Below, one piece after another: positions 15,831 through 61,640 of a DNA stretch of 64,000 bases. The notes below the pieces were generated by a model. It made no database searches, was not told the DNA's origin, and saw only the letters and a list, made by a program, of their open reading frames with translations. Origin of the DNA: Eubacteriales bacterium (GTDB lineage: Bacteria; Bacillota; Clostridia; Oscillospirales; CAG-272); NCBI GenBank assembly GCA_045128735.1, contig JBGVRT010000120.1:48883-112882 (forward strand). Reading direction: 5' to 3'. The first letter of the stretch is position 1, and each line of letters starts with the position of its first letter. The position numbers and the translations under genes are program-made.

Positions 15831-15850
15831 TATTTTGCCGAATAATGGCT

Positions 15851-15967
15851 ATCTTTGGGGATTGGTGAAATTCCATACCGGTGGTAAAGCCCACGAGCGT
15901 GACCTTTCGGTCAGGCATGAACAGGTGATATTCCTGTGCCGACGGTAAAGTCCGGATAGAAAAAGAT
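15851..15967 (+). promoter_or_regulatory. FMN riboswitch (RFN element) aptamer
   Basis: ATCTTTGGGGATTGGTGAAATTCCATACCGGTGGTAAAGCCCACGAGC...GTGCCGACGGTAAAGTCCGGATAGAAAAAGAT matches the conserved RFN core (GGTGAAATTCC, CCGGCGGTA-type, GCCGACGGT.AAGTCCGGATG) and closes with P1 ATCTTT/AAAGAT. Confidence 0.9.
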
Positions 15968-15984
15968 AAAGCAGGATTATTTTT

Positions 15985-16867: not shown

Positions 16868-16953
16868 GATCTTATCAAGAGTGGTGGAGTGACTGGCACT
16901 GTGAAACCCGGCAACCTGCATTTGCAAGGTGCTAAATCCCGAGAGATGAGACG
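16868..16953 (+). promoter_or_regulatory. SAM-I riboswitch (S-box) aptamer
   Basis: TCTTATCAAGAGTGGTGGAGTGACTGGCACTGTGAAACCCGGCAACC...GGTGCTAAATCCCGAGAGATGAGA; S-box consensus blocks with P1 TCTTATC/GATGAGA. Confidence 0.92.
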
Positions 16954-24112: not shown

Positions 24113-25411
24113 ATGACAGAACAGACAGAAAAAAAGCCCCGTGAATCGGGGCTTTCGTCAAGTAAAATGATGTTTGTGCTGTGCTTTTTGGTGTACAGCG
24201 CGGCATACGTGGCAAGAGGAAATTTTGCCTACGCACGCTCGACAATGATAGCCGAGGGTGTAATAGATACGGGGCTTGCGGGCATCCTCAGCGCGGTTTA
24301 TTTCGGCTGTTATGCCGTGGGTCAGCTTATAAACGGCGCGGCGGCAGACAGACGTCCGCCCTTTGCACTTGTTTGCGGAGGACTTTGTGCGATTGCCGTA
24401 TCAAATGCGGCAATGATGCTTGAAGTCCCCGTCGTACTCCGAATTCTGATATGGGCACTTAACGGCTTTGGGCAGTCGATGCTCTGGTGTCCGATATTCT
24501 ACATAATATCAAACGTACTACACGGCAAAATAAGATTTTTTGCTATAACCGCAATAACGCTGACCACCCCAATAGGCAAGGCATCCTGTGCTTGGCTGTC
24601 GGGCTTGGCGGTGAGGTCGCAGAAGTGGCAGAACGTATTTCTTATGTCGGCTTCGGTTATCGTTGGCGTGCTTTGCCTGTGGATAGTCGGTATGCTGACC
24701 GTAAGGAAAAATCTTGTCGTTTCGCAAAGCCTGAAAAAATCCGAATCGGAGACAACCGAAAAAAGCAACGGACTTTTTGAGATGCTTTCAAGGAGCGGAA
24801 TGCTGCTTATGCTTCCCGCAATGCTTGTTTACGGACTTTTCTTAAATGGCGTAGTCGAGCTTATTCCCACGATTCTTTCAAATGAATACGGACTCTCTCC
24901 TACAGCGGCGGCGTGGCTCGATTCGCTTGTTCCCATACTCGGCTCGCTTGGGGTTATAGCCGCAAACTTCGTTTATATCAAAATGTTTAAGCGTAACGAG
25001 ATGAAAAGCGCACTTTTTACAATGTCGGTGTCAATAGCTCCTATGCTCGTAATGCTTGCACTGGCTCTCGGAGGGGGGAACGGTACTTTGTTTGGCAGAT
25101 ATGCAGACTCGGCGGCGTTTGTCATCACTTACGGTCTTGTTTATATCCTTCAGCTTTCCTTCGGGCATTTCAGCGTCTCGCTTGCGCCCATGCACTTTTC
25201 AAGATTCGGTCTGGCGGCAACAATGTCGGGGCTTGTTAATGCAGTAGGCTACGGCGGAAGCGCGCTCGCATCCTACGTTATGAGCTACGCAGTTGAGCGA
25301 TTGCCTCTTTGGCAAACCGTGAGTATATGGATAGCCTGCCTTGTTGCGGCAAGTCTGCTCCTTGTTCTCGCATTGTTGAAGTGGAATAAATTTAAGGAGC
25401 TGTATTCTTAA
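24113..25411 (+). CDS. MFS transporter
   Basis: 432 aa and strongly hydrophobic, with roughly 12 helices by eye. Substrate unknown. Confidence 0.7.
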   Translation: MTEQTEKKPRESGLSSSKMMFVLCFLVYSAAYVARGNFAYARSTMIAEGVIDTGLAGILSAVYFGCYAVGQLINGAAADRRPPFALVCGGLCAIAVSNAAMMLEVPVVLRILIWALNGFGQSMLWCPIFYIISNVLHGKIRFFAITAITLTTPIGKASCAWLSGLAVRSQKWQNVFLMSASVIVGVLCLWIVGMLTVRKNLVVSQSLKKSESETTEKSNGLFEMLSRSGMLLMLPAMLVYGLFLNGVVELIPTILSNEYGLSPTAAAWLDSLVPILGSLGVIAANFVYIKMFKRNEMKSALFTMSVSIAPMLVMLALALGGGNGTLFGRYADSAAFVITYGLVYILQLSFGHFSVSLAPMHFSRFGLAATMSGLVNAVGYGGSALASYVMSYAVERLPLWQTVSIWIACLVAASLLLVLALLKWNKFKELYS

Positions 25412-25428
25412 CGAATCAGCTCCTTTTG
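25394..25428 (+). terminator. terminator overlapping the MFS stop codon
   Basis: AAGGAGCTG-N14-CAGCTCCTT followed by TT; the TAA stop lies in the loop. Confidence 0.65.
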
Positions 25429-31603: not shown

Positions 31604-32929
31604 ATGAGACTTTACATAAAATTGAAGGACTTTTTTGAAAGCCGTCTTTTCATCATTCTGAGTGTAATCGCGGCGGCTTGCTTCGTTGTCTTTGAATACG
31701 AAGCCTACGGCGCGATAATACTTCTTAACCTTGGTGCGGTGGCTTTGCTGTGCAGTGAGAACATAATATCGGCACTTACCCCCGCGTTGCTTGCCTGCAC
31801 CTTTGTAATAAAGTGCTACGACTCGGCAGAGCTTTTCTTCCCGTTGTGGTGGACGGCACTTTTCCCCATAGCGGCAATAGTTGCGTATCTTATAGTGTTC
31901 AGAAAAAAGATAACCGTCGGAAAAAGCTTTGGCGGTATAATTGCGGTGTCTGTCGCCGTTACCCTCGGCGGACTTTTTACAATATCTCCTGCCGAATATT
32001 TTTCGGGTGCGTCGATGTATTACGTAATAATGCTCGGCTTTGGAATGGCGGCGGCGTATCTGCTTGTGCGCTCGCATATAAACGAAACCGATAGGTATAA
32101 CGTGTTTGAGAGATACGTTGAAATAATGACGGTCGTGGGGCTTTTCGCTTGCTTCGTGGTATTTGAGTATTACGTAAAAAATTTCAGCGAAACCCTGCTT
32201 CTCGGTAAGCTTGCCGAAATACAGTGGAGTAATAATATTTCTACGCAGATAATGTTTTCAATGCCTTTTTTGCTTTGGTATATGCAAAAAAATCTCGCTT
32301 TCTTTCCGCTTCTGCTTGTGAATTACGGCGCACTTCTGCTGACAGGCTCACGCGGCGGTTGGGCAATGGGAACACTTGAACTTGTGGTCTGCCTTGCGGC
32401 GTATTGTATACTCGCTAAAAAGGGAAGAGCGAAAACCGCAGTGCTGTCTCTGCTTTGCGTGACGGCAATGGCGGTCATCGGAGTTGTGGCGTGGAGATTT
32501 ACCGTTTATGATAATCTCGATCAGAGCTTCATAAAACACAGCGACGTTCGAGTGAGACTTATTGCACGTTCCTTTGAGGACTTTTGTGCAAATCCGCTGT
32601 TTGGAAAGGGAATAGGAAACACCGCCAACTCTGATTTGTACAATGGCAAAAAGGGCACGATGGTGTGGTATCATATGATGATACCGCAGATTGTGGGAAG
32701 TCTCGGACTTGTGGGAATGTTCTGCTACGGCAAACAGATAGTCGAGCGCTTTGCGATGATATTCAAAAAGCGCGATATATACGTTTGGGTGTTGGGGCTG
32801 TCGTATATCGGAATGTTTCTTATGTCGCAGGTTAATCCGGGTGAATTCTGCCCACTTCCGTATGAGCTTCTCGTCGTCATCAACTTTATTATGGTAGAAA
32901 AATATCAAGAAAAGGAGCTGTCCTGCTGA
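31604..32929 (+). CDS. O-antigen ligase/polymerase (Wzy_C-like) family membrane protein
   Basis: 441 aa, polytopic, with an LLLTGSRGGWAMG loop typical of the Wzy_C domain. Confidence 0.75.
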   Translation: MRLYIKLKDFFESRLFIILSVIAAACFVVFEYEAYGAIILLNLGAVALLCSENIISALTPALLACTFVIKCYDSAELFFPLWWTALFPIAAIVAYLIVFRKKITVGKSFGGIIAVSVAVTLGGLFTISPAEYFSGASMYYVIMLGFGMAAAYLLVRSHINETDRYNVFERYVEIMTVVGLFACFVVFEYYVKNFSETLLLGKLAEIQWSNNISTQIMFSMPFLLWYMQKNLAFFPLLLVNYGALLLTGSRGGWAMGTLELVVCLAAYCILAKKGRAKTAVLSLLCVTAMAVIGVVAWRFTVYDNLDQSFIKHSDVRVRLIARSFEDFCANPLFGKGIGNTANSDLYNGKKGTMVWYHMMIPQIVGSLGLVGMFCYGKQIVERFAMIFKKRDIYVWVLGLSYIGMFLMSQVNPGEFCPLPYELLVVINFIMVEKYQEKELSC

Positions 32930-32938
32930 CAGCTCCTT
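32912..32938. terminator. bidirectional terminator between convergent genes
   Basis: AAGGAGCTGTC-ctgct-GACAGCTCCTT, an 11-bp stem; T-rich on the minus side. The plus-strand TGA stop lies at the loop/3'-arm junction. Confidence 0.7.
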
Positions 32939-38817: not shown

Positions 38818-38933
38818 AAATTGGTGTTTGGTGCACTGTGTTCGCACAAACCCGCCTCCTTTGCCTCCCTTGTCAAAGGGAGGGGGACCGCGGAACGCGG
38901 TGGAGGGATTCACGACAGATAAAACCAATAAAT
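38818..38933. repeat. palindromic intergenic repeat, copy 1 (variant right half)
   Basis: AAATTGGTGTTTGGTGCACTGTGTTCGCACAAACCCGCCTCCTTTGCCTCCCTTGTCAAAGGGAGG... aligns with 56374-56440; degenerate right end AAAACCAATAAAT. Confidence 0.75.
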
Positions 38934-39020
38934 ATGTGTATTGATGGGGATTTCAAATTATTGAATCCAACCCACCCGCTTCGCTAACAAGGTCGCAAGC
39001 GACCTGCACTATCGTGGTCC

Positions 39021-39075
39021 GTCCCCCCTTTGACAAAGGGGGCAAAGGAACGGGCGCACAATCAAACACCAATTT
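39021..39075. repeat. same repeat family, right-half copy
   Basis: CCCCCCTTTGACAAAGGGGGCAAAGGAACGGG...CAAACACCAATTT aligns with 56421-56475. Confidence 0.7.
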
Positions 39076-39098
39076 ATTGCACCCAAAGCTAACGACTC

Positions 39099-39196
39099 GG
39101 TGTTTAGCCGAGGAGTGGGGTGCGTGGCATTATGTTCGCACAAACAATGGTGCGCTGACCTTTTGCCCGCGGGGGCTTCCCCGCAAACACCAATTT
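39099..39196. repeat. same repeat family, degenerate full-length copy
   Basis: GGTGTTTAGCC...TGTTCGCACAAAC...GGGGCTTCCCCGCAAACACCAATTT; the right end is identical to 56447-56475 except for one base. Confidence 0.7.
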
Positions 39197-45058: not shown

Positions 45059-45088
45059 AGGAGCTGTCCTCGGACAGCTCCTGTTTTG
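45059..45088 (+). terminator. terminator after the Gfo/Idh/MocA gene
   Basis: AGGAGCTGTC-ctcg-GACAGCTCCT followed by GTTTTGATT. Confidence 0.75.
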
Positions 45089-45134: not shown

Positions 45135-45210
45135 GGCACGGCGTAAGGGATTCGAACCCCCGACCTTTTGGTTCGTAGCCAAACACTCTATCCAGCTGAG
45201 CTAACGCCGC
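45134..45210 (-). tRNA. tRNA-Arg (anticodon ACG)
   Basis: Minus strand reads GCGGCGTTAGCTCAGCTGGATAGAGTGTTTGGCTACGAACCAAAAGGTCGGGGGTTCGAATCCCTTACGCCGTGCCA. It folds as a 77-nt cloverleaf (7/4/5/5-bp stems, G1-U72 wobble), with anticodon loop CTACGAA, T-loop TTCGAAT and an encoded CCA. Confidence 0.9.
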
Positions 45211-51854: not shown

Positions 51855-51888
51855 AAGGAGCTGACTCGCTAAGAATTCAGCTCCTTTT
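51855..51888 (+). terminator. terminator after the isomerase gene
   Basis: AAGGAGCTGA-N12-TCAGCTCCTT followed by TT. Confidence 0.7.
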
Positions 51889-51950
51889 GCACTCCCGTGA
51901 TTTGTGAGAACGTGGTGCATCAAATCCCAATTTACCTTTGCTCAAAGGGT
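51889..51950. repeat. degenerate end-fragment of the palindromic repeat family
   Basis: ...GAGAACGTGGTGCATCAAATCCCAATTT compared with the consensus ...AGAACGGGGGCTTCCTCGCAAACACCAATTT, followed by the small palindrome CCTTTGCTCAAAGG. Confidence 0.4.
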
Positions 51951-54630: not shown

Positions 54631-55539
54631 ATGAAAGAAATTAAAGGAATTTGCCCCATAATCGCCACTCCTTTCAAGGAAAACGGCGACGTAGACTATA
54701 AAGGACTTGAAAAGCTTGTGGGCGCGCTTATCGACGGCGGCTGCCACGCGGTAACTCTTTTCGGAATCGCGGGCGAATACTATAAGCTTACCGACGAAGA
54801 AAGAATCAAAATGGCTGAAATAACCATTGACGTATGTAAGAAAAAGGGCGGCACGTCTATTCTTTCTGTTACCGACCACTCAACCGAAATTGCCGCAAAA
54901 CGCGCAAAGCAGTTTGAGGATATGGGTGCGGACTGCCTTATGATGCTTCCGCCTTTCTTCCTTAAGCCGGGCGCCGGCTGGCTTTATGAGCATATGAAGG
55001 CTATCGGTAAGGCGGTAAGTATTCCCGTAATGGCACAGTACGCTCCCGAGCAGACAGGCGTTGCAATAGCTCCCGATATGTTCAAAAAGCTTGGTGCTGA
55101 GTGCCCCAATATTATCTACTACAAAATCGAATGCAAGCCCGCAGGTCCTTACATCACAAATCTTATCAAAATGACAAGCTCCGAGACAACAAAGATATTC
55201 GTTGGTAACGCAGGCTTCCAGCTTATTGAGGCTATGGACAGAGGCGCAATAGGCGCAATGCCGGGTTGCTCGATGTACGACGTCTACCTTGATATCTATA
55301 ATCACTACGTAAACGGCGACCGAGAGGGCGCAATAGAGCTTCACAATAAGATTCTTCCTATGCTCAACCATATCAGACAGAACGTAGAGCAGATAATCAG
55401 CTTTGAAAAGCGCATACTTAAAAAGAGAGGAATAATCGAGTCCGACTACTGCCGTAAGCCCTCTTACGATACCGACGAGTATTTTGATAAGCTCTTTGAG
55501 GAGTTCTACGCGGAGATGGCGGCTCGCTATAATTGGTAA
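54631..55539 (+). CDS. DapA/NAL (dihydrodipicolinate synthase)-family lyase, 2-keto-3-deoxy-acid aldolase candidate
   Basis: 302 aa, PIIATPFKENGDVDYKGLEKLV...GIAGEYYKLTDEER pattern of class I DHDPS-like aldolases. Confidence 0.8.
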   Translation: MKEIKGICPIIATPFKENGDVDYKGLEKLVGALIDGGCHAVTLFGIAGEYYKLTDEERIKMAEITIDVCKKKGGTSILSVTDHSTEIAAKRAKQFEDMGADCLMMLPPFFLKPGAGWLYEHMKAIGKAVSIPVMAQYAPEQTGVAIAPDMFKKLGAECPNIIYYKIECKPAGPYITNLIKMTSSETTKIFVGNAGFQLIEAMDRGAIGAMPGCSMYDVYLDIYNHYVNGDREGAIELHNKILPMLNHIRQNVEQIISFEKRILKKRGIIESDYCRKPSYDTDEYFDKLFEEFYAEMAARYNW

Positions 55540-55541
55540 TT

Positions 55542-56327
55542 ATGGAAAATACTAATAAAACCGCAATAGTAACAGGAGCGGGAACGGGTATAGGCAAGGT
55601 TATAGCCTATGAGCTTGCAAAGGCAGGATACGACGTTGCCGTTCACTGTAACGGAAGCACCGAGGGCGCAAATGAGGTGGCTGAAAAGATACGCTCCGAT
55701 TTTGGCAGAAAAGCTGTTGTCATCAGGTCTAACCTTGCAATGTTTTCGGGAGTTGACGCGCTGTTTGATGAATTTCTCAAGCACTTCGATAGACTTGACC
55801 TTTTCGTCAATAACGCAGGCGTTACAAAGAAATCCAAGTTCCTTGAAACTGAGGAAGAAATGTTTGACCTTATAGTTAACGTCGATTATAAGGGCGCGTA
55901 TTTCTGTATGCAGAGGGCGGCGCGTATTATGAAGGAAAAGGGAATAGAAGGCTCTATTATCCTTATTTCCTCTAATAATGCCAAGGCACATTTTGCCGAC
56001 GTGTCGGTCTACGGCTCTGTAAAAGCGGCTATCCAAAAGGCGGCAGAGCATATGGCTATCGAGCTTGCACAGTATAAAATACGTGTAAATACCGTTGCTC
56101 CCGGCTGGACAGAAACCGGCGCATCCCGACTTGACGATAAGGAGAGCACCTATTATAAAGTGCCCCTTAAGCGCTGGGCGCAGTGCGATGAAATCGCCGC
56201 GGCAATACTCTATCTTTCGAGCGATATGGCAAAGTCCATAACGGGAACTACTCTCGTTATCGACGGTGGCGCGCTCCTTGTTTCCGATAAGGGCGAGCGA
56301 TACGGATATTACAATCCCAAAAACTGA
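55542..56327 (+). CDS. SDR-family oxidoreductase
   Basis: TGAGTGIGK and catalytic YGSVKAA. Start at ATG 55542; the ORF-track TTG 55533 overlaps the previous stop. Confidence 0.82.
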   Translation: MENTNKTAIVTGAGTGIGKVIAYELAKAGYDVAVHCNGSTEGANEVAEKIRSDFGRKAVVIRSNLAMFSGVDALFDEFLKHFDRLDLFVNNAGVTKKSKFLETEEEMFDLIVNVDYKGAYFCMQRAARIMKEKGIEGSIILISSNNAKAHFADVSVYGSVKAAIQKAAEHMAIELAQYKIRVNTVAPGWTETGASRLDDKESTYYKVPLKRWAQCDEIAAAILYLSSDMAKSITGTTLVIDGGALLVSDKGERYGYYNPKN

Positions 56328-56332
56328 ATTAA

Positions 56333-56370
56333 GGGGGCTGTCTCTCTTGAGATAGCCCCTCTCTTTGTTC
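56333..56370 (+). terminator. terminator after the SDR gene
   Basis: GGGGGCTGTCTC-tctt-GAGATAGCCCCT (one G-U pair) followed by CTCTTTGTT. Confidence 0.6.
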
Positions 56371-56373
56371 GGT

Positions 56374-56475
56374 AAATTGGTGTTTAGCGCACTGTGTTCG
56401 CACAAACCGCCTCCTTTGCCCCCCTTTGACAAGGGGGGGGCAAAAGAACGGGGGCTTCCTCGCAAACACCAATTT
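56374..56475. repeat. intact 102-bp palindromic intergenic repeat (MITE/REP-like)
   Basis: 12-bp perfect terminal inverted repeats AAATTGGTGTTT (56374-56385) and AAACACCAATTT (56464-56475). Central G/C hairpin TTTGCCCCCCTT-tgac-AAGGGGGGGGCAAA. Confidence 0.8.
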
Positions 56476-56518: not shown

Positions 56519-56557
56519 GTAAAAAAAGTCATAAACTCGGTAAAAAAAGTCATTGAC
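56519..56557 (+). promoter_or_regulatory. tandem direct repeats GTAAAAAAAGTCAT with 21-bp period
   Basis: DR1 is 56519-56536 and DR2 is 56540-57 (56540-56557). DR2 runs into the -35 TTGACT. Confidence 0.65.
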
Positions 56558-61368: not shown

Positions 61369-61394
61369 ACTCATATAGATATTAAACCGATGAT

Positions 61395-61640
61395 TAAGAA
61401 TAGTAGTTTACGCCTTGTGTTCACAGAGAGCCGTCGGGGGTGGAAGTACGGCAACGCGAACGTAGATGAATGGGCTTATGAGGGCGGTCGAAAGCGGTAA
61501 CGCAAGTAGCAACCGACGGGAGCTGACCCGTTATAAACAGAAGTACATGAAGTGTACAATGAGTGGACGCTATGCGTCAATTTGGGTGGTACCGCAGGAT
61601 TTAACGTCTTGTCCCTTAAATTTTAGGGACAAGACTTTTT
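61395..61640 (+). promoter_or_regulatory. T-box riboswitch leader, Trp specifier (UGG)
   Basis: Stem I AGAGAG...GGTGGAAG. Specifier loop GAA-TGG-G (TGG at 61471-61473). AGTA box (AAGTAGCAAC) and F-box CCGTTA. T-box sequence AATTTGGGTGGTACCGCAG (61579-61597). Terminator GTCTTGTCCCT-N9-AGGGACAAGAC followed by TTTTT (61606-61640). Confidence 0.9.

What the first reader, a model, noticed from the sequence alone, without database searches (positions are those of the whole stretch)
56374..56475. Intact 102-bp element with perfect 12-bp terminal inverted repeats and a central G/C hairpin
AAATTGGTGTTT...AAACACCAATTT encloses a conserved block (GCGCACTGTGTTCGCACAAAC) and a strong hairpin (TTTGCCCCCCTT-tgac-AAGGGGGGGGCAAA). 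It is inserted between a terminator and the regulatory repeats of the next gene. Together with the cluster at 38818-39196 and the fragment at 51889-51950, this gives at least five copies or fragments in 64 kb, all intergenic. The architecture fits a non-autonomous MITE or a REP/BIME-like element. I cannot tie it to a named family.
Basis: seen in the sequence. Interest (0 to 1): 0.55.

Follow-up and report, generated by a model that had tools for sequence, protein, structure and literature searches.

The report
Small mosaic intergenic repeat, gut Clostridia
The 102-bp sequence is a real, non-coding, hairpin-rich repeat that has spread into gaps between ordinary genes; it is the short form of a seemingly undescribed repeat family shared by many uncultured gut Clostridia, and the enzyme that moves it is unknown.

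Summary
Window 56374-56475 is a 102-nt element with perfect 12-nt inverted ends (AAATTGGTGTTT/AAACACCAATTT), a 19-nt core (GCACTGTGTTCGCACAAAC) and a central G/C hairpin. The window holds three more core-bearing copies, at 38833, 39127 and 51900(-).

The core, not the termini, is the conserved part. It recurs, mostly 19/19, in about 50 intergenic places in more than 15 Clostridia/Eubacteriales/Oscillospiraceae MAGs. Its neighbours there are unrelated housekeeping genes. It occurs in either orientation, as singles, inverted pairs and tandem arrays.

In full-length relatives (150-460 nt) each roughly 38-nt arm is AAATTnnnnTTT, a 3-5-nt spacer and the core. The window copy keeps a whole left arm but only the outer 12 nt of the right arm.

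The central hairpin is a family module. Its top is conserved (TTTTTCAAAA or TTGACAA) and the base of its stem covaries.

A related species lacks the element at all three syntenic sites, and strains of the home species carry different alleles at one site.

I found no target-site duplication, no neighbouring transposase, no GTAG tag, and no match in Rfam, plasmids or phages.

Verdict: a non-autonomous MITE/REP-BIME-like repeat. It is a new family of a known kind, with an unknown mobilising enzyme.

The parts
56374..56385 (+). Left terminal inverted repeat, AAATTGGTGTTT
   Evidence: It is an exact reverse complement of 56464-56475, and the same 12-mer sits at 38818, 39064(-) and 39185(-).
56389..56407 (+). 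19-nt core GCACTGTGTTCGCACAAAC, the family-defining block
   Evidence: It recurs in about 50 intergenic places in more than 15 Clostridia MAGs.
56415..56444 (+). Central G/C hairpin TTTGCCCCCCTT-TGAC-AAGGGGGGGGCAAA, a variant of family module H1
   Evidence: The top of H1 is conserved and the base of its stem covaries across 15 distinct copies.
56450..56463 (+). Small GC hairpin module GGGGGCTTCCTCGC of the right arm
   Evidence: It matches 39171-39184 within a 26/27 right-arm match, and is similar to GGGGCTGCTTCCTCGCAAC next to the core in L015.
56464..56475 (+). Right terminal inverted repeat, AAACACCAATTT
   Evidence: The same end occurs twice in L018, a different MAG.
38818..39075 (+). 258-nt copy. 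It has the same perfect 12-nt termini, the core at 38833-38851, and inverted H1 hairpins at 38857-38883 and 39023-39049.
   Evidence: (I7).
39076..39196 (+). Adjacent copy. Its parts are a hairpin whose loop mimics the terminus (39093-39110), the core at 39127-39145, a GC hairpin, and the right terminus at 39185-39196.
   Evidence: In strain L046 this locus holds one 103-nt element with perfect termini.
51897..51933 (-). Diverged copy on the minus strand: left arm AAATTGGGATTTGAT (51919-51933) plus core-like GCACCACGTTCTCACAAAT (51900-51918). It has no right terminus and abuts a bidirectional terminator.
   Evidence: nhmmer E = 4e-4.

Best explanation
The 102-bp sequence is a short-form copy of a non-autonomous, non-coding interspersed repeat. 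It is MITE-like in outline and REP/BIME/BOX-like in its modular, hairpin-rich make-up. It belongs to a wide superfamily in uncultured gut Clostridia.

What is shown:
- The family is defined by the 19-nt core GCACTRTGTTCGCACAAAC.
- In full-length members (150-460 nt) the two arms are inverted copies of [AAATTnnnnTTT + 3-5 nt + core], followed by hairpin modules H1-H3.
- The window copy keeps the whole left arm, one H1 hairpin, a small GC hairpin and only the outer 12 nt of the right arm.

What is inferred:
- Copies are made and placed by an enzyme supplied in trans that recognises the core and the folded or paired arms.
- Copies survive where they do no harm, typically just past a terminator and before the next promoter.
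- They then decay, delete and recombine into mosaics.

Three features lean me slightly towards a structure-dependent enzyme that makes no duplication (HUH/RAYT-like or similar) over a classical DDE transposase. No target-site duplication is visible even on near-identical copies. The flanking inverted repeats differ by lineage around a constant core. The hairpin stems covary. This last step is not shown.

No effect on the neighbouring genes is evident.
For: Recurrence and reach
- The termini and the core recur far above chance.
- A genome scan with the core gave 24 loci, 22 of them in Clostridia-type MAGs. A metagenome scan added 6 real loci.
- About 50 copies at up to 4 mismatches lie in about 230 kb of fetched DNA. 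All are intergenic, and they occur in both orientations relative to the flanking genes.

No fixed gene partner
- The neighbour ORFs share no recurrent family.
- The 39 neighbours scanned are housekeeping genes such as enolase, truB/ribF, der/plsY, dnaE, glyA and rpsT.

Architecture
- Full-length palindromic relatives carry the core in both arms (L029, L010, L012, L025).
- L018 holds a 50-nt minimal form that equals the window copy minus 52 internal nt.
- The H1 module has at least 9 different paired stems. 97% of cells pair, and 30 cells are changed on both sides against 7.9 in shuffles.

Presence or absence
- L049, a syntenic relative, has no copy in 22 kb. Its site-B spacer is 81 nt against 505 nt here.
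- The ortholog with a 91% identical flanking gene lacks the element at site A.

Alleles within the species at site B
- L046 has one 103-nt element where the window has a 379-nt cluster. The difference is 276 nt, bounded by a 7-nt repeat.
- L052 and L040-L048 carry a differently oriented copy with the compensated termini AAATTATTGTTT...TAATTT at the same junctions.

Assembly behaviour
- Short-read contigs from many samples break inside the element.
Against: - No target-site duplication is consistent across about 10 copies with defined ends.
- No transposase or other partner gene lies next to any copy.
- No precise empty site within the same species was recovered, so an insertion event itself is not demonstrated.
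- The genome-wide copy number is unknown. Only 64 kb of the home genome was visible.
- Exact conservation of the core across species could instead reflect a host protein's binding site.
- The hairpin covariation test is biased, because I selected the hairpins for pairing. Palindromes can also self-correct without selection.
Confidence: 0.62

Rival explanations
1. It is a REP/REPIN-type element in the strict sense. Single-stranded hairpins would be cut and joined by a single-copy HUH tyrosine transposase (RAYT) encoded elsewhere in the genome.
For: - No duplication flanks any copy, and the hairpin stems covary.
- Inverted core doublets with 11-14-nt spacers occur in L003 and L011.
- The core is directly followed by a (GTT)GTAGGG hairpin in L006, L008, L015 and L016.
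- A separate GTAGGG hairpin doublet is present in the relative L049.
- Group 1 RAYTs are reported in Clostridia (PMC5581495).
- Some RAYT genes are flanked by long TIRs rather than GTAG repeats (PMC3733652).
Against: - The 102-nt element has no GTAG, GTGG or CGTC on either strand. The published definition needs such a tag 0-2 nt 5' of the hairpin (PMC6006769).
- The conserved core is not itself a palindrome.
- No Y1 transposase was seen among 39 neighbour ORFs.
- The tagged-REP survey read here (PMC3733652) does not mention Firmicutes or Clostridia in its main text.
Confidence: 0.18
2. It is a classical MITE. It would be a deletion derivative of an insertion sequence whose DDE transposase binds the roughly 38-bp terminal repeats. 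The invariant AAATT...AATTT tips would hide a palindromic target duplication such as AATT.
For: - Long relatives have arms of about 38 nt that include the core.
- Copies are small, non-coding and dispersed.
- The termini are compensated between subfamilies: AAATTGGTGTTT, AAATTATTGTTT and AAATTGGTATTT.
- The tips always read A-AATT...AATT-T.
Against: - No parent IS was found in 30 loci, in plasmids or in phages.
- No variable duplication is visible.
- The inner core is more conserved than the tips. Other lineages enclose the same core in unrelated short inverted repeats (CTCGAAAA, CTCGAGA, CGAACAA), which is the reverse of the usual MITE pattern.
Confidence: 0.25
3. It is a host-selected binding site or structural DNA motif, for example for a nucleoid protein, or an uptake-like signal. 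In that case it would not be a mobile element.
For: - The core is 19/19 identical in many species whose flanking genes have diverged.
- It often sits 11-24 nt past a terminator: 6 of 19 arms, against 2% of random positions.
- It contains GCAC-N7-GCAC, two direct GCAC repeats one helical turn apart (read directly from the sequence).
Against: - Positions are not orthologous between species.
- A close relative has none in 22 kb of syntenic DNA.
- Strains differ at one site.
- Copies decay (51897-51933).
- Density is low, about 1 per 16 kb.
Confidence: 0.08
4. It is a structured non-coding or cis-regulatory RNA.
For: - The fold is strong.
- Stems covary.
- The core sits in a loop in the short forms.
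Against: - Nothing in Rfam 15 reaches a gathering score, and the sub-threshold matches are unrelated families or long-hairpin miRNA precursors far below their cut-offs.
- Both strands fold equally well.
- Orientation to flanking genes is mixed, 15 opposite against 8 same.
- No promoter or terminator lies inside the element.
- The core is a loop in some lineages and part of a stem in others.
Confidence: 0.04

Closest known systems
MITEs such as Neisseria Correia elements and pneumococcal RUP (compared from memory)
   Same: - Size of about 100-450 bp, non-coding, with terminal inverted repeats.
- Dispersed in intergenic DNA, with short and long forms.
- Copies recombine and delete.
   Different: - No TA or other target duplication.
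- No parent IS is known.
- The inner 19-nt core, not the tip, is the most conserved part.
- Other lineages wrap the same core in unrelated inverted repeats.
REP / BIME / REPIN elements with their RAYT transposases (PMC3116915, PMC3733652, PMC6006769)
   Same: - Extragenic, hairpin-forming, mosaic clusters.
- Inverted doublets, no duplication at the flanks, often just after genes.
- Stems vary while a short motif stays fixed.
   Different: - No GTAG, GTGG or CGTC tag in the window element.
- The conserved motif is 19 nt and not palindromic.
- No RAYT has been identified.
- The host is a Clostridia lineage, which the tagged-REP survey read here (PMC3733652) does not mention.
Pneumococcal BOX elements (boxA-boxB(n)-boxC; compared from memory)
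   Same: - Modular build: fixed end modules that pair with each other, and a variable number of internal modules.
- Intergenic, with no coding capacity.
   Different: - No sequence relationship was tested or is expected.
- BOX is confined to streptococci.
- Here the family spans many species and has palindromic full-length forms.
Long TIR repeats that flank some RAYT genes (Di Nocera et al. 2013, PMC3733652)
   Same: Moderately abundant TIR-type repeats unrelated to GTAG REPs, possibly moved by a tyrosine HUH transposase.
   Different: No association with any RAYT gene could be tested here.

Membership tests
MITE (generic definition) | Small (under about 600 bp), non-coding | tested here: met
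   The element is 102 nt. The only ORF across it (55527-56465, minus strand) lies antisense to the adh_short dehydrogenase gene (55533-56327) and is spurious.
MITE (generic definition) | Terminal inverted repeats | tested here: met
   The 12/12 termini are perfect. Full-length relatives have arms of about 38 nt.
MITE (generic definition) | Multiple dispersed copies, with filled/empty polymorphism | tested here: met
   There are 4 core copies in 64 kb. The element is absent from the syntenic relatives L049 and L038. Strains carry different alleles at site B. The genome-wide count was not obtainable.
MITE (generic definition) | Target-site duplication flanking each copy | tested here: not met
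   The flanks of about 10 copies share no consistent direct repeat. A palindromic duplication hidden in the AAATT/AATTT tips cannot be excluded.
MITE (generic definition) | A parent insertion sequence with the same ends | tested here: inconclusive
   None was found among 39 neighbour ORFs, 30 loci, plasmids, phages or viral contigs. Whole genomes could not be scanned.
REP / REPIN (RAYT-mobilised) | GTAG or GTGG tag 0-2 nt 5' of a hairpin (PMC6006769) | tested here: not met
   Neither strand of the 102-mer contains GTAG, GTGG or CGTC. The tag is present next to the core only in some relatives: L006, L008, L015 and L016.
REP / REPIN (RAYT-mobilised) | Inverted doublets (BIME/REPIN organisation) | tested here: met
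   Divergent and convergent core pairs occur in L003, L011, L012, L016, L022, L025 and L029. The window cluster 38818-39196 is a mosaic.
REP / REPIN (RAYT-mobilised) | A RAYT gene in the genome, flanked by the repeats | not testable with these tools
   Only 64 kb of the home genome and 8-kb pieces of the MAGs were available.
Any Rfam 15 RNA family | Covariance-model score at or above the gathering threshold | tested here: not met
   Searches returned only unrelated families or long-hairpin miRNA precursor matches, all far below their thresholds.
IS200/IS605-derived palindrome-associated elements | Subterminal hairpins without terminal inverted repeats, and a fixed short target motif on the left flank only | tested here: inconclusive
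   Terminal inverted repeats are present, which does not fit. The AAATTTTGATTT arm type is always preceded by TC, and by TTC in most copies, but this may simply be part of the arm.

The most novel reading that the evidence does not exclude
The constant 19-nt core, wrapped in lineage-specific covarying inverted repeats and accompanied by hairpin modules, would mark a REP-like system of gut Clostridia. It would be served by an as yet unrecognised enzyme, possibly domesticated and single-copy, that acts on folded DNA and leaves no duplication. That would make it a Firmicutes counterpart of REPIN-RAYT with a different recognition logic.
Probability: 0.15. Interest if true: 0.65.

Novelty: new member of a known kind. 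Interest (0 to 1): 0.4.

Why it matters
Small interspersed repeats are well studied in Proteobacteria and a few pathogens, but hardly at all in the uncultured Clostridia that dominate animal guts.

This family matters for three reasons:
- It is widespread across many MAG species.
- It breaks short-read assemblies at predictable points.
- It sits between housekeeping genes and inside operon-like pairs such as truB-ribF and der-plsY.

The 19-nt core gives a simple handle for three tasks. It can be used to census the family. It can flag assembly gaps. It can guide a search for the enzyme that moves the repeats.

The window copy itself shows no sign of altering its neighbours, so the finding is mainly of cataloguing and evolutionary interest.

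Tried and rejected
- **Rfam.** Gathering and permissive scans of the window, the cluster and 16 loci found nothing relevant.
- **BLAST.** The short and long forms found nothing meaningful in plasmids or phages. The core has 0 hits in viral contigs.
- **Literature.** Searches for the core string and for MITE/REP work in Clostridia or Oscillospiraceae found no description.
- **Partner gene.** All-against-all comparison of ORFs near cores found no recurrent family. Pfam scans of 39 neighbour ORFs found no transposase.
- **Target duplication.** Inspection of about 10 copies found no consistent repeat. An apparent empty site in L040-L048 turned out to be the end of a variant terminus.
- **Nested insertion at site B.** I rejected this for the 276-nt difference between the window and L046. 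The extra segment has no inverted ends, and the junction module is conserved in another species (L016). Deletion between 7-nt repeats fits better.
- **IS5 resemblance.** From memory, the IS5 terminal repeat shares GTGCGAACA with the reverse complement of the core. The orientation and the distance to the tip differ, so I treat this as chance.
- **Other readings of the core.** I considered a sigma-54 promoter, a LexA box, cre, dif and an integron attC site by eye. Spacing or context did not fit any of them.
- **Promoter or terminator inside the element.** None was found. The TTGACA in the hairpin loop has no -10 partner.

Full report
**1. The observation**

Its layout is:
- AAATTGGTGTTT, the left terminus
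- AGC
- GCACTGTGTTCGCACAAAC, the core
- CGCC TCC
- TTTGCCCCCCTT-TGAC-AAGGGGGGGGCAAA, the central hairpin
- AGAAC
- GGGGGCTTCCTCGC
- AAACACCAATTT, the right terminus

The two 12-mers are exact reverse complements. This 12-mer occurs five times in the window, all exact, at 38818+, 39064-, 39185-, 56374+ and 56464-. Shuffles give 0.57. The core occurs three times at up to 3 mismatches against 0.01 expected. A profile of arm plus core finds a fourth, diverged copy on the minus strand at 51897-51935, and nothing else in 64 kb.

The 102-mer folds at -50.8 kcal/mol (z = -5.5). The opposite strand folds almost as well (z = -5.0).

The element sits between the terminator of an adh_short dehydrogenase gene (56333-56360) and the TTGACT-17-TAGAAT promoter of a GHL6 glycosidase gene.

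**2. Where else it occurs**

Rfam has no match for the element or for its relatives. Plasmid, phage and viral collections have none either.

A scan of one genome per species with GCAYTRTGTTCGCACAAAC returned 24 loci. Twenty-two are intergenic sites in MAGs labelled Eubacteriales, Clostridia, Oscillospiraceae or Bacillota. The other two are chance hits inside genes of other phyla. A metagenome scan added six real loci.

Allowing 4 mismatches gives about 50 copies in about 230 kb. All are intergenic. In co-directional gene pairs the core runs against transcription 15 times and with it 8 times. Seven copies lie between convergent genes and three between divergent genes.

The neighbouring ORFs share no recurrent family. 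Thirty-nine of them scanned against Pfam are ordinary genes: enolase, mutY, miaB, truB/ribF, der/plsY, dnaE, clp, purH, purM, glyA, rpsT, gdhA, feoB and others. None is a transposase.

**3. Anatomy of the family**

The flanks of the core differ between genomes, but they follow a common plan.

*Full-length forms (150-460 nt).* L029, L010, L012 and L025 carry large imperfect palindromes. Each arm is a terminal AAATTnnnnTTT (often TTCAAATTTTGATTT on one side and AAATTGGGATTT on the other), then 3-5 nt, then the core. Hairpin modules follow:
- H1: variable stem base, then CTTTTTCAAAAG
- H2: GC-rich
- H3: GCTTTTTCTTTG...CAAAGAAAAAGC

*The window copy.* It has the complete left arm, one H1-type hairpin and a small GC hairpin, but only the outer 12 nt of the right arm.

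*A minimal form.* L018, from another MAG, carries a 50-nt version: AAATTATTGTTT ATC core CGCC AAACACCAATTT. This equals the window copy minus its 52 internal nucleotides.

*Other wrappings of the same core.* Other lineages enclose the core in unrelated short inverted repeats:
- (A)CTCGAAAA/TTTTCGAG(T) in L005 and L007
- CTCGAGA/TCTCGAG in a five-copy tandem array in L023
- CGAACAA/TTGTTCG in L004

In L003, L011, L026 and L008 the core, or half of it, pairs with an inverted copy of itself.

*Hairpin covariation.* Across 15 distinct copies the H1 stem base takes at least nine different sequences, and all of them pair. 97% of cells pair. Thirty cells are changed on both sides against 7.9 in shuffles, and 0 of 500 shuffles reached the observed value. 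The caveat is that I picked these hairpins by requiring at least 4 pairs.

*Summary of the pattern.* The core is constant while the paired sequences around it change. This is the opposite of an ordinary MITE, in which the tips are the conserved part.

**4. Evidence that the copies come and go**

*Between species.* L049 is a 22-kb syntenic stretch from a relative whose GHL6 protein is 86% identical. It covers the equivalents of all three window sites and contains no core and no AAATT arm. Its spacer at the second site is 81 nt, against 505 nt in the window. A closer relative (GHL6 91% identical) has the same terminator and the same operator repeats at the first site but no recognisable element, in a shorter spacer. 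The spacer has diverged too far to read exact junctions.

*Within the species at 38818-39196.* The flanking proteins here are 99-100% identical between strains.
- L046 holds one 103-nt element with perfect termini where the window holds a 379-nt cluster. The difference is 276 nt, bounded by the 7-nt repeat GGTGTTT.
- The window's junction module also occurs in L016, a different species. I therefore read L046 as a deletion rather than reading the window as a nested insertion.
- Other samples carry a second allele. At the same left junction L052 reads AAATTATTGTTT AGC GGTATGTTCGCA, so the core is at the opposite end. Seven contigs on the other side begin TAATTT|gtcggtg, which is the tail of the matching terminus AAACAATAATTT. 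The two termini have therefore changed together.

*Assembly behaviour.* Short-read contigs from many samples stop inside the element, as expected for a repeat.

I did not recover an exact empty site within the species.

**5. What it does not have**

- No direct repeat flanks the copies consistently. The tips always read A-AATT...AATT-T, so a palindromic duplication hidden in the tips cannot be ruled out.
- The 102-mer has no GTAG, GTGG or CGTC on either strand. It therefore fails the published REP tag criterion (PMC6006769; PMC3733652).
- There is no promoter or terminator inside it.
- The two GTAAAAAAAGTCAT repeats downstream are conserved in orthologs that lack the element. They belong to the glycosidase gene and not to the element.

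**6. Position preference**

Six of 19 AAATT-type arms lie 11-24 nt beyond a strict terminator-like hairpin, against 2% of random positions in the same DNA. By eye the number is higher.

This may be target choice, or it may be survival in the only neutral space available. The control positions were mostly coding, so the contrast is only indicative.

**7. Interpretation**

The best-supported reading is a non-autonomous interspersed repeat that is, or recently was, copied in trans (0.62). The core, and probably the folded arms, would be the recognition site.

Below that level the mechanism is open. The rivals overlap, because two of them are sub-mechanisms of the main reading:
- Classical DDE-type MITE, 0.25. 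The long inverted arms support this.
- Strict REP/RAYT system, 0.18. The missing duplication, the lineage-specific paired flanks around a constant motif, the inverted doublets and the GTAGGG hairpins next to the core in some genomes support this or a similar structure-dependent enzyme.
- Host binding site, 0.08. Non-orthologous positions and the strain and species polymorphism make this unlikely.
- Structured RNA, 0.04. Mixed orientation and the lack of any transcription signal make this unlikely.

**8. Novelty**

I found no description of this family in Rfam, in the collections searched or in the literature searched. The tagged-REP survey read here (PMC3733652) does not mention Firmicutes or Clostridia in its main text.

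The kind of object is well known: a small modular palindromic intergenic repeat. I therefore rate it a new member of a known kind, of moderate interest.

The most novel reading still open is a Clostridia counterpart of the REPIN-RAYT partnership with a different recognition motif (probability about 0.15).

Noticed in passing
window 56519-56553: Two direct repeats GTAAAAAAAGTCAT lie just upstream of the -35 box of the GHL6 glycosidase gene. They are conserved in orthologous loci that lack the element (L035, L037/L049, L038). They are probably an operator of that gene and not part of the repeat.
   Followed up: partly
window 25396-25423, 32914-32936, 45060-45081, 51857-51884; L018 66-100 and 3126-3168: Terminator hairpins share the stem GGAGCTG...CAGCTCC. 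There are 4 in the window against 0 expected. Near-identical AAAGGAGCTG...CAGCTCCTTTT terminators lie next to the elements in another MAG (L018). This is either a recurrent terminator sequence family or another mobile module.
   Followed up: partly
L049 2850-2960: The related species that lacks the element carries an inverted doublet of GTAGGG-tagged hairpins (TGTAGGGCACGACCTACGTGTCGTGCCGT and its partner). This looks like a canonical REP/REPIN pair in a Clostridia genome.
   Followed up: no
window 38975-39004; L006 253-282: A 30-nt module inside the 258-nt copy (CCACCCGCTTCGCTAACAAGGTCGCAAGCG) is 97% identical to a stretch in a different MAG. It is a further shared building block of the mosaic.
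   Followed up: no
window 39093-39110; L016 about 783-818: The loop of the hairpin CTCGG-TGTTTAG-CCGAG repeats the terminal motif GGTGTTTAGC. The hairpin is conserved across species. Its GGTGTTT is one of the two 7-nt repeats that bound the 276-nt strain difference at this site.
   Followed up: partly
window 61381-61619, 15847-15971, 16869-16952, 45137-45210(-): The window also holds a T-box leader, an FMN riboswitch, a SAM riboswitch and a tRNA gene. These are ordinary Firmicutes features unrelated to the finding.
   Followed up: no
L023 6835-7105: Five core copies form a tandem array between der (engA) and plsY. Spacing alternates at 49, 68, 49 and 86 nt. Each core is enclosed by CTCGAGA/TCTCGAG, and the copies are interleaved with GTGG-TTTTTG-CCAC hairpins.
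   Followed up: partly
L046 about 1100-1150: This ENA scaffold has a run of N and a duplicated ribosome-binding stretch just before the 79-aa gene, so it is locally misassembled. The element junction I used lies outside that stretch.
   Followed up: no
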